This document shows positions 4,699 through 4,959 of a DNA stretch of 50,683 nucleotides, in pieces; position 1 is the first letter of the stretch; every line of letters begins with the position of its first letter. This DNA comes from a virus: positions 1-50,683 of the IMG/VR virus record IMGVR_UViG_3300047160_007712; one strand, 5' to 3'. The position numbers were made by a program, and so were the translations under genes. Under the pieces are notes generated by a model. It ran no database searches and had not been told where the DNA came from. It saw nothing but the letters and a program-made list of their open reading frames with translations.

Positions 4699-4742
4699 GA
4701 TATCCTTGAGATATCCCAGAGATATCCTATGGATATCCTATA
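4699..4742. repeat. Left iteron array: four GATATCC repeats at an exact 11-bp period
   Basis: GATATCC starts at 4699, 4710, 4721 and 4732. A degenerate GATTAAT follows at 4743, then GATTAATGGAT. Confidence 0.9.
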
Positions 4743-4811
4743 GATTAATGGATTAACAAAAAGTGACCCACATTCTGCAAGCCTGCAAATTCCAGCGCAA
4801 ATTTGTAAATT

Positions 4812-4850
4812 AAAAAAAAAAAAAAAAAAAAAAAAAAAAAAAAAAAAAAA
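4812..4850. repeat. Uninterrupted A39 homopolymer (T39 on the minus strand)
   Basis: Counted directly: 4812-4850 are all A. TATATACATATA follows. Confidence 0.9.
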
Positions 4851-4866
4851 TATATACATATACCAC

Positions 4867-4887
4867 CCCTCCCCCCCCCAGGGAGGG
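4867..4887. other. C-rich hairpin next to the A tract
   Basis: CCCTCCC (4867-4873) pairs with GGGAGGG (4881-4887) around a 7-nt C-rich loop. TCAATTTTC follows on the plus strand. Confidence 0.5.
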
Positions 4888-4915
4888 TCAATTTTCAAAC
4901 ATCCATTAATCCATA

Positions 4916-4959
4916 GGATATCTCTAGGATATCTCTAGGATATCTATAGGATATCCATT
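4916..4959. repeat. Right iteron array: four GGATATC repeats at an exact 11-bp period, inverted relative to the left array
   Basis: GGATATC starts at 4916, 4927, 4938 and 4949. A ninth copy sits at 4995-5001, just upstream of the early promoter. ATCCATTAAT (4901-4910) is the inverted partner of ATTAATGGAT (4744-4753). Confidence 0.9.

What the first reader, a model, noticed from the sequence alone, without database searches (positions are those of the whole stretch)
4699..4959. Dyad of 11-bp-phased GATATCC iterons flanking the AT-rich core between the divergent arms
The left array has GATATCC at 4699, 4710, 4721 and 4732, an exact 11-bp period. The right array has GGATATC at 4916, 4927, 4938 and 4949, also an exact 11-bp period, in inverted orientation. 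GATTAATGGAT (4743-4753) and ATCCATTAATC (4901-4911) extend the inverted repeat. The symmetry centre (about 4827) falls inside the A39 tract. A ninth GGATATC (4995-5001) sits 15 bp upstream of the -35 of the early promoter. GCAAATT occurs twice (4785 and 4797). A weak leftward promoter candidate, TTGCGC-17-CAGAAT (4800-4772, minus strand), would have to read through the left array. One-helical-turn phasing places all sites on one DNA face. Iterons around an easily melted core are the classic layout of a replication origin, and also of a looping genetic switch that controls both arms.
Basis: partly seen in the sequence, partly recalled or inferred. Interest (0 to 1): 0.75.

Follow-up and report, generated by a model that had tools for sequence, protein, structure and literature searches.

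The report
Phased repeat dyad near phage terminase genes
The two mirrored sets of evenly spaced GATATCC repeats are real and belong to a conserved ~270-bp element of an uncultured phage group; it most likely marks where the phage's DNA-packaging enzyme docks and cuts the genome, and less likely where DNA copying starts.

Summary
The window is a circularly assembled ~50.6-kb podovirus-like genome.

The same layout recurs in more than 40 related viral contigs. It has 3-5 sites per side, mostly at 11 bp. The site sequence differs between lineages. The centre is a TA run or a poly(A/T) tract. The element always lies 0.8-1.65 kb upstream of a helix-turn-helix protein, which I identify as the small terminase (TerS) and which normally sits directly before the large terminase (TerL).

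The TerS DNA-reading helix changes together with the repeat sequence.

The only cultured relative, Caulobacter phage Kuura, has the same architecture. One boundary of its experimentally mapped 606-bp terminal repeat falls inside that element.

My best reading, at about 0.5, is a terminase recognition and cleavage region (a pac or terminal-repeat boundary). A replication origin (about 0.2) and an early/late promoter switch (about 0.15) remain open. Nothing here was tested biochemically.

The parts
4698..4738 (.). Left array: four GATATCC sites at an exact 11-bp period. The first and last are full GGATATCC palindromes.
   Evidence: Conserved in phage B with different spacers.
4743..4763 (.). Left inner element GATTAATGGATTAAC followed by CAAAAAG (an A5 tract).
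   Evidence: Counterparts are GATTAAGCGATTAAC (phage B) and GATTGCGCGATTGCC (L276).
4764..4811 (.). Spacer holding GCAAATT twice and the unconserved weak minus-strand promoter match.
   Evidence: Not conserved in relatives.
4812..4850 (+). A39 tract containing the dyad centre (4827).
   Evidence: The tract is A21-A33 in phage B, L275, L276 and L277, T21 in L268, and A13 in Kuura.
4851..4864 (.). TA-rich core TATATACATATACC. A TA run is present at the centre in 20 of the 39 surveyed relatives.
4866..4887 (.). C-run/GGGAGGG hairpin (CCCTCCC-CCCCCCA-GGGAGGG). The GGGAGGG motif recurs right of centre in relatives.
   Evidence: terminator-like stem.
4888..4912 (.). TCAATTTTCAAAC (a T-tract mirroring the left A5) and the right inner element ATCCATTAATCC.
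4916..4956 (.). Right array: four GGATATC sites at an exact 11-bp period, inverted relative to the left array.
   Evidence: Phage B has GGGAATA, GGATATG, GGATATC, GGATATC at the same period.
4953..4974 (.). Two further ATCCATTAA copies and the palindrome TCCATTAATGGA, distal to the right array.
   Evidence: D4, I24, I25.
4995..5001 (+). Ninth GGATATC, 14 nt before the -35 hexamer. A promoter-proximal extra site also occurs in phage B and, with the AATTAGC repeat, in L267.
5016..5044 (+). Rightward promoter TTGACA-17-TATAAT (12/12, with TG).
   Evidence: A comparable promoter follows the right array in phage B, L267, L268, L276, L280 and L282.
4622..4645 (-). Conserved block GTCATACTTTCGCCACAATGG, a candidate non-consensus leftward (late operon) promoter.
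   Evidence: Read from sequences. Inference only.
4586..4603 (-). Conserved hairpin CGTGGC-AATCAC-GCCACG in the leader of the left operon.
3359..3898 (-). Helix-turn-helix protein, probable small terminase (TerS). It is the best candidate reader of the repeats.
45984..47492 (-). Large terminase (TerL).
   Evidence: phrog_2, 3.7e-35; 38-44% identity to epsilon15-like TerL.

Best explanation
The dyad is the phage's packaging recognition region. The proposed mechanism has four steps.

1. An oligomeric small terminase uses its helix-turn-helix domains to bind the four sites on each side, which are spaced one helical turn apart.
2. This binding wraps or pairs the two arms.
3. The large terminase is thereby positioned on the easily distorted core between the arms (A-tract, TA run, G/C hairpin; about 4758-4900).
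4. There the replicated DNA is cut to start packaging. The cut is either a pac cut or one boundary of a short direct terminal repeat. The palindromic arms may also extrude as a hairpin or cruciform during this processing.

The extra site next to the early promoter would let the same protein dampen early transcription late in infection.

**Shown:**
- the architecture and its conservation;
- the linkage to the TerS/TerL operon;
- the co-variation between the TerS reading helix and the repeat sequence;
- a mapped genome end inside the homologous element of phage Kuura.

**Inferred:**
- that TerS is the binding protein;
- that cutting occurs here in this phage;
- the wrapping geometry.
For: 1. **A mapped genome end lies inside the homologous element of phage Kuura.**
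   - Kuura shares the two-arm layout, PolA at 34% identity and the TerS-like protein (E=1e-10).
   - It has an exact 606-bp terminal repeat, mapped with PhageTerm (PMC9959647).
   - The left repeat boundary (43208) lies inside an element of the same design: four GGGCAGT sites 9-10 bp apart, A13 at the dyad centre, the palindrome TTACATATGTAA, a G-rich stretch, then the cut, then an inverted arm that is 77% complementary.
   - A boundary would fall within +/-100 nt of one given element by chance about 1% of the time.

2. **The element is linked to the TerS-like gene across relatives.**
   - I surveyed 39 IMG/VR loci carrying the TerS-like gene. In 32 of them the best 30-nt inverted repeat scores at least 23/30, against 18-21 in shuffles.
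   - The dyad centre always lies 0.8-1.65 kb upstream of that gene.
   - In 22 loci a TA run or poly(A/T) tract lies in the core between the arms, usually within about 20 nt of the axis.
   - Every array found with the strict search (four or more copies, at most one mismatch) has an 11-bp period. A 12-bp period occurs in L275, L277 and L267.

3. **The gene is probably TerS.**
   - It lies just upstream of TerL on the same strand in 43 of 43 loci that hold both genes, and is essentially adjacent in 33.
   - The AlphaFold model has an N-terminal HTH followed by a 45-residue helix. Its best PDB match is 2ao9 (probability 1.0, E 0.08). As I recall, that entry is a small-terminase-like nonamer. Several predicted viral structures labelled TerS also match.
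   - PHROG 7344, 'terminase small subunit', matches at E 0.03.

4. **Co-variation favours TerS and disfavours other candidates.**
   - Reading helix SLAMIG(L/I)LKRD goes with (G/T)ATATCC repeats.
   - Helices SYQRVHTL, SYNRVSQL and SIQRIDTL go with CCTTAT repeats.
   - The otherwise diverged L297 and L332 share SYNRVSQL and have CTCTAAT versus CTCTTAT.
   - The RHH beta-strand, the helicase C-terminus and the first left-arm protein do not follow the repeats.

5. **The cores are under selection.** Between the window and phage B the heptamer cores are 51/56 identical and the spacers 13/32.

6. **Known packaging regions look similar.**
   - T7 has 12 CCTAAAG repeats at a 13-bp period next to its terminal repeat.
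   - From memory, P1 pac has 4+3 hexamers flanking the cut and SPP1 has pacL-pacC-pacR.
Against: - No read-level data exist for this phage. Both the window and phage B assemble as circles (97- and 127-nt end overlaps), so no end is visible.
- TerL is closest to epsilon15-like terminases, whereas Kuura's TerL and portal show no BLASTP similarity to the window's. The Kuura analogy therefore rests on the TerS-like protein and the element alone.
- The orientation of the A-tract and G-rich core relative to TerS differs between the window, L268 and Kuura.
- One TerS-like locus (L281) has no obvious arrays.
- The TerS assignment rests on weak sequence and fold scores plus synteny.
- A dyad with an AT-rich centre and a promoter-proximal extra site is also classic for origins and for autoregulated initiators.
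Confidence: 0.5

Rival explanations
1. The element is a bidirectional replication origin. A phage initiator binds the two inverted arrays. The A-tract and TA core melt, helped by negative supercoiling from the two divergent promoters. Helicases then load head to head.
For: - It is the AT-richest spot and the only iteron-like region in the genome.
- It has dyad symmetry with a TA run or A-tract at or near the axis in many relatives.
- A consensus promoter lies next to the array in every relative read.
- The phage encodes a DUF3987/D5-type helicase-primase. This class includes self-loading initiators that read iterons (SaPI Rep, Cch2; PMC7581432).
- The strand composition switches sign here.
Against: - The helicase C-terminal domain is as conserved between phage B and L267 as the rest of the protein, although their repeats differ (GATATCC versus AATTAGC).
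- No other initiator candidate gave any family hit.
- The skew has the opposite sign to the usual leading-strand G excess. It follows sense-strand C3>G3 in nearly all genes, so it is explained by gene orientation and codon usage.
- The element tracks the terminase operon, not the replication genes, which lie 6-13 kb away.
- In Kuura a packaging end lies inside it.
Confidence: 0.2
2. The element is an early/late transcription switch. A phage protein bound to both arrays and to the promoter-proximal site represses the strong rightward early promoter. The same protein activates the non-consensus leftward promoter of the 36-kb late operon, possibly by looping.
For: - Each array has the same orientation and a similar distance relative to its own promoter.
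- An extra promoter-proximal site lies 14-21 nt before the -35 hexamer in the window, phage B and L267.
- The leftward promoter lacks a consensus, so it probably needs a factor.
- From memory, phi29 p4/p6 acting between divergent early and late promoters is a precedent.
Against: - In Kuura the homologous element lies between two co-oriented early genes, 600 bp from the divergent promoters.
- The arrays lie 85-130 bp upstream of the start points.
- The conserved TA/A-tract axis has no role in this model.
- The RHH candidate fails the co-variation test.
- The only co-varying DNA-binding protein looks like a small terminase.
Confidence: 0.15
3. The element is a site for another DNA transaction that uses inverted arm sites: an attP-like recombination site, a hairpin-telomere resolution site, or a plasmid-type partition centromere such as R1 parC.
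For: - Inverted arrays flank a ~170-bp core.
- From memory, an 11-bp period of short sites is the layout of R1 parC.
- The single strand folds into a long hairpin (z = -10).
Against: - No integrase, protelomerase, ParA or ParM was seen among the proteins scanned.
- The axis is not a perfect palindrome, because it contains a homopolymer.
- The gene content is that of a podovirus-like phage, and no lysogeny or plasmid-maintenance genes were seen among the ORFs scanned.
Confidence: 0.05

Closest known systems
Phage P1 pac site (from memory; Sternberg and Coulby)
   Different: P1 pac lies inside the pacA gene, is regulated by Dam methylation, and has no homopolymer/TA axis or large dyad symmetry. 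Here there are 4+4 sites at a strict 11-bp period, and the element lies in an intergenic region about 1 kb upstream of TerS.
Bacillus phage SPP1/SF6 pac (pacL-pacC-pacR; from memory)
   Same: TerS binds repeated boxes on both sides of the cut site. The DNA is bent or wrapped around a ring of HTH domains. The site lies at the start of the terminase operon.
   Different: The SPP1 boxes differ between the two sides and are not an inverted array of one motif. There is no poly(A)/TA axis.
T7 concatemer junction (SRL/SRR repeat arrays next to the terminal repeat)
   Same: It is a podovirus with phased heptamer arrays directly adjoining the terminal repeat. I checked this here: 12 CCTAAAG copies at a 13-bp period at 174-340, beside the 160-bp repeat. 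An inverted repeat about 170-200 nt left of the right-end repeat is also present. From memory, that repeat has been proposed to form a hairpin during processing.
   Different: The T7 arrays are direct rather than inverted, have a 13-bp period, and have no known reader. T7 terminase and RNA-polymerase-dependent processing are unrelated to this phage's proteins.
Iteron origins read by self-loading helicases (SaPI ori, SCCmec Cch2, phage P4, SV40, HSV oriS)
   Same: Short repeats on either side of an AT-rich core, sometimes in inverted orientation. A D5/DUF3987-type helicase is encoded in this phage.
   Different: In those systems the origin adjoins the helicase gene and the helicase's DNA-binding domain co-varies with the iterons. 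Here it does neither.
Caulobacter phage Kuura, left boundary of the 606-bp terminal repeat
   Same: The same design: four phased sites, an A-tract at the dyad centre, a TA palindrome, a G-rich stretch and an inverted arm. It also has a homologous TerS-like protein.
   Different: The repeat is GGGCAGT at 9-10 bp. The element lies between two early genes rather than between the divergent arms. The element was not described in the Kuura paper as far as I read it. TerL and the portal are not detectably similar.

Membership tests
Terminase recognition site (pac/cos/terminal-repeat boundary) | A physical genome end or the first packaging cut maps within or beside the site. | tested here: inconclusive
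   Met in the relative Kuura: the PhageTerm-mapped repeat boundary at 43208 lies inside the element. It cannot be tested for the window, which is a circular assembly without reads.
Terminase recognition site (pac/cos/terminal-repeat boundary) | The site is bound by the small terminase subunit. | not testable with these tools
   Only indirect support is available: the HTH reading helix co-varies with the repeat sequence, and linkage is constant.
Terminase recognition site (pac/cos/terminal-repeat boundary) | The site is genetically linked to the terminase genes. | tested here: met
   The dyad centre lies 0.8-1.65 kb upstream of the TerS-like gene in 39 of 39 surveyed loci, with a strong dyad in 32. 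The TerS-like gene lies just upstream of TerL in 43 of 43 loci.
Iteron-type replication origin | Repeated binding sites lie next to an AT-rich unwinding element. | tested here: met
Iteron-type replication origin | A cognate initiator exists whose DNA-binding part matches the iterons. | tested here: not met
   The helicase C-terminus and the RHH protein do not co-vary with the repeats. No initiator family hit was found among the early ORFs.
Iteron-type replication origin | Replication-type strand asymmetry switches at the site with the leading strand G-rich. | tested here: not met
   The skew goes from + to - across the site, which is the sign expected for a terminus. It follows sense-strand C3 excess.
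Operator region of a divergent promoter switch | The sites overlap or adjoin the promoters they control, in all relatives. | tested here: inconclusive
   A promoter-proximal extra site is present in the window, phage B and L267. In Kuura, however, the element is not at the divergent promoters.
Type II partition centromere (R1 parC-like) | ParR (RHH) and ParM genes lie adjacent, with arrays flanking their promoter. | tested here: not met
   No ParM or ParA hit was found. The RHH protein lies 5.6 kb away and does not co-vary.

The most novel reading that the evidence does not exclude
One compact dyad element serves three roles at once. It defines the genome end through terminase binding. It forms a hairpin or cruciform that primes duplication of a short terminal repeat, or even replication. 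It also shuts off the adjacent early promoter. The small terminase acts as a sequence-specific iteron-binding protein whose reading helix and sites co-evolve rapidly, giving each lineage a private packaging specificity.
Probability: 0.15. Interest if true: 0.75.

Novelty: new variant of a known kind. Interest (0 to 1): 0.55.

Why it matters
Packaging signals are known for only a handful of model phages. For most uncultured phages nobody can say where packaging starts.

If this element is the terminase site, it gives a sequence-readable signature of the packaging start for a whole environmental podovirus group: two inverted arrays with an 11-bp period around a TA or A-tract axis, about 1 kb upstream of TerS.

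It would also provide a natural series of TerS reading helix and DNA site pairs for studying how packaging specificity evolves.

Finally, it predicts which short DNA segment would make a plasmid packageable by these phages.

If the element is instead an origin, it would be an iteron origin without a recognisable initiator. That would also be worth knowing.

Tried and rejected
- **Near-identical DNA search in isolated phages:** no match.
- **Pattern scans for three GGATATC at 11 bp:** these returned 6 viral, at least 120 metagenome and 70 genome loci. Only one (phage B) is related to the window. The rest are unrelated tandem repeats.
- **The proline-rich first right-arm protein as an anchor:** it gave 69 loci with no arrays, because that gene sits in other contexts elsewhere.
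- **Pfam and PHROG scans of about 30 small ORFs near the junction:** nothing useful.
rejected by co-variation.
rejected.
rejected, because it is almost unrelated between the window and phage B, which share the repeat.
- **ORF 3883-4065:** only a non-significant match to the tail of a GIY-YIG-like ORF.
- **Epsilon15-like isolates with the closest TerL:** these have a different gene order and no such junction.
- **GC skew as an origin marker:** uninformative, because it follows codon usage.
- **Rfam and tRNA scans of the junction:** empty.
- **Contig ends:** they cluster at the poly(A)/TA core (L275, L277, L278, L267, L325). This fits either real ends or assembly failure at a homopolymer or palindrome, so I did not count it as evidence.
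- **attP, telomere-resolution site and parC readings:** rejected for lack of the enzymes.

Full report
**1. The observation**

- GATATCC lies at 4699, 4710, 4721 and 4732, and GGATATC at 4916, 4927, 4938 and 4949. Both sets have an 11-bp period and they are inverted relative to each other.
- The inverted repeat extends over 73-nt arms (4697-4769 and 4885-4957, 84% complementary). Its centre is at 4827, inside A39 (4812-4850).
- An inner pair, GATTAATGGATTAAC and ATCCATTAATCC, extends the dyad.
- A ninth GGATATC (4995-5001) lies 14 nt before the -35 hexamer of a 12/12 consensus promoter (5016-5044).
- Twelve of the 13 GGATATC matches in the window fall within 304 bp. Shuffles give about 4 for the whole 50.7 kb and never reach 13.
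- No other phased array exists in the genome, and this region holds its AT-richest 100 nt (22% GC).

**2. What the window is**

- The first and last 97 nt are identical, so this is a circular assembly of about 50.6 kb.
- Plus-strand genes run from 5107 to 17892. They include a PD-(D/E)XK nuclease, an AAA_24 protein, a UDG plus exonuclease, PolA and a DUF3987 helicase-primase.
- All other genes are on the minus strand. They start at 4570 and wrap around the assembly end through TerL (45984-47492), a T7-type portal, an epsilon15-type capsid protein and tail proteins.
- The junction is therefore the single divergent region of a podovirus-like genome.
- The nearest isolate by PolA is Caulobacter phage Kuura, at 34% identity. 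The nearest isolates by TerL are epsilon15-like phages, at 38-44%.

**3. Relatives**

The closest relative is phage B (one IMG/VR contig, read as loci L002, L266 and L274).
- It has the same 4+4 sites at 11 bp, the inner GATTAA-N2-GATTAAC pair, a poly(A) tract, a TATATA run with a G-rich stretch, and the extra site before its promoter.
- Heptamer cores are 51/56 identical to the window's, but the 4-nt spacers only 13/32. Selection therefore acts on the cores.

Other relatives keep the layout with different repeats:

| Locus | Repeat | Period |
|---|---|---|
| L275, L277 | CCTATATC | 12 bp |
| L279 | CTATAGTCC / CCATATCCC | 11 bp |
| L276 | degenerate GGATAYY | 11 bp |
| L267 | AATTAGC | 12 bp |
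| L280, L282 | CTCTTATG / CATAAGAG | 11 bp |
| L268 | phased CCC/GGG | about 8-11 bp |

A survey of 39 IMG/VR loci that carry the adjacent helix-turn-helix gene gave the following.
- The best 30-nt inverted repeat scored at least 23/30 in 32 loci, against 18-21 in shuffles.
- The dyad centre lay 0.8-1.65 kb upstream of that gene in every locus.
- In 22 loci a TA run or poly(A/T) tract lay in the core between the arms, usually within about 20 nt of the axis.
- Every array found with the strict search had an 11-bp period.
- The left half is pyrimidine-rich and the right half purine-rich, so the whole element is a large imperfect palindrome.
- The window's single strand would fold into a long hairpin (z = -10).

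**4. Who reads the repeats**

*The adjacent helix-turn-helix protein (3359-3898).*
- It has no Pfam hit.
- It matches PHROG 7344 'terminase small subunit' weakly (E 0.03).
- It models as an N-terminal HTH followed by a 45-residue helix. Its best PDB match is 2ao9. As I recall, that entry is a small-terminase-like nonamer. It also matches predicted viral structures labelled small terminase.
- It is homologous to Kuura's annotated small terminase (E=1e-10).
- It lies just upstream of TerL on the same strand in 43 of 43 loci that hold both genes.
- I therefore take it as TerS, with about 0.75 confidence.

*Co-variation.* Its reading helix changes together with the repeat.
- SLAMIG(L/I)LKRD goes with (G/T)ATATCC.
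- SYQRVHTL, SYNRVSQL and SIQRIDTL go with CCTTAT.
- L297 and L332 are otherwise diverged but share SYNRVSQL, and their repeats differ by one base.

*Other candidates do not follow the repeats.*
The window has a different strand (FHRTNISLH) although it shares phage B's repeat.
- The helicase C-terminus is equally conserved in phage B and L267.
- The first left-arm protein is almost unrelated between the window and phage B.

**5. The key comparison: phage Kuura**

- Kuura has an exact 606-bp terminal repeat, mapped by its authors with PhageTerm (PMC9959647).
- Immediately outside the left boundary lie four GGGCAGT sites at 43037, 43046, 43056 and 43066.
- These are followed by 67 nt, then A13 (43142-43154), the palindrome TTACATATGTAA and a G-rich stretch.
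- The boundary is at 43208. An arm at 43219-43248 is 77% complementary to the left array, and the dyad centre lies in the A-tract.
- This is the same architecture as in the window, and a physical genome end lies inside it.
- The element in Kuura lies between two co-oriented early genes, not between divergent arms.

**6. Interpretation**

A terminase recognition and cleavage region read by TerS is the best-supported function, at about 0.5. It explains:
- the constant linkage to the terminase operon;
- the co-variation with the TerS reading helix;
- the Kuura genome end;
- the one-turn spacing, which fits a ring of HTH domains;
- the easily distorted core.

Known analogues are P1 pac and SPP1 pac (from memory) and the T7 repeat arrays beside its terminal repeat, which I checked.

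A replication origin remains possible, at about 0.2. It lacks a reader, and the skew argument fails: sense strands are C3-rich in nearly all genes, which produces the sign change at the junction.

A promoter switch, at about 0.15, explains the promoter-proximal site but not the Kuura position or the axis.

The functions are not mutually exclusive.

**7. Limits**

- No reads and no biochemistry were available.
- Kuura's TerL and portal are not detectably related to the window's.
- The orientation of the core relative to TerS varies between relatives.
- One TerS-like locus (L281) lacks obvious arrays.
- Contig breaks at the poly(A) tract can be assembly artefacts.

Noticed in passing
window 17889-27010: Nearly all genes have a strong C-over-G excess at third codon positions of the sense strand (-0.3 to -0.7). 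This block, which includes the 1904-aa LPD22 polyvalent protein, has the opposite or no excess. As a result, the plus-strand GC skew flips at about 27 kb without any change of gene strand. The block could be a foreign module or a true replication-related switch point.
   Followed up: partly
window 4586-4603 (minus strand): A hairpin, CGTGGC-AATCAC-GCCACG, lies 15-25 nt before the first left-arm start codon. The loop AATCAC is conserved in phage B, L275, L277, L279, L280 and L268. It may be a leader RNA structure or a binding site.
   Followed up: partly
window 4622-4645 (minus strand): The block GyCATACWTTCGCCACAAT is conserved across relatives upstream of the left operon. It is a candidate non-consensus late promoter.
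   Followed up: partly
window 5107-5565: The first gene after the perfect consensus promoter encodes a 152-aa proline-rich protein with conserved N- and C-terminal ends. It has 93 metagenome homologues, which in other phages sit in unrelated contexts, some of them within a few kb of terminase or portal genes.
   Followed up: partly
window 47495-50683 and 1-3358: About 6.5 kb of extra genes separate the TerS-like gene from TerL. They include a 557-aa protein with a 72-nt tandem duplication at 1931-2070 and a protein with a signal-peptide-like start. In most relatives the TerS-like gene and TerL are adjacent.
   Followed up: partly
window 1-97 and 50587-50683: The two ends are identical over 97 nt, so the contig is a circular assembly. 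Phage B's contig likewise has a 127-nt end overlap.
   Followed up: yes
L004 3630-3700; L005 1620-1650; many loci of Flavisolibacter ginsengisoli (L131, L134, L136 and others): Unrelated viral and bacterial sequences also carry tandem GGATATC arrays at an 11-bp period. L004 has seven copies. In L005 the array is followed by five ACGGTTCAAC repeats. Their nature is unknown.
   Followed up: no
L288 (Kuura) 43241-43381: The terminal repeat of Kuura begins with a 73-bp tandem duplication, and each copy carries the inverted site AACTGCCC.
   Followed up: partly
L280 about 3500-3620; L282 about 1130-1200 (locus coordinates; both regions were read as reverse complement): A second promoter lies downstream of the element in these relatives. 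It is flanked by palindromes of the type TCACGAAATCGTGATCG, which suggests a separate operator system.
   Followed up: no
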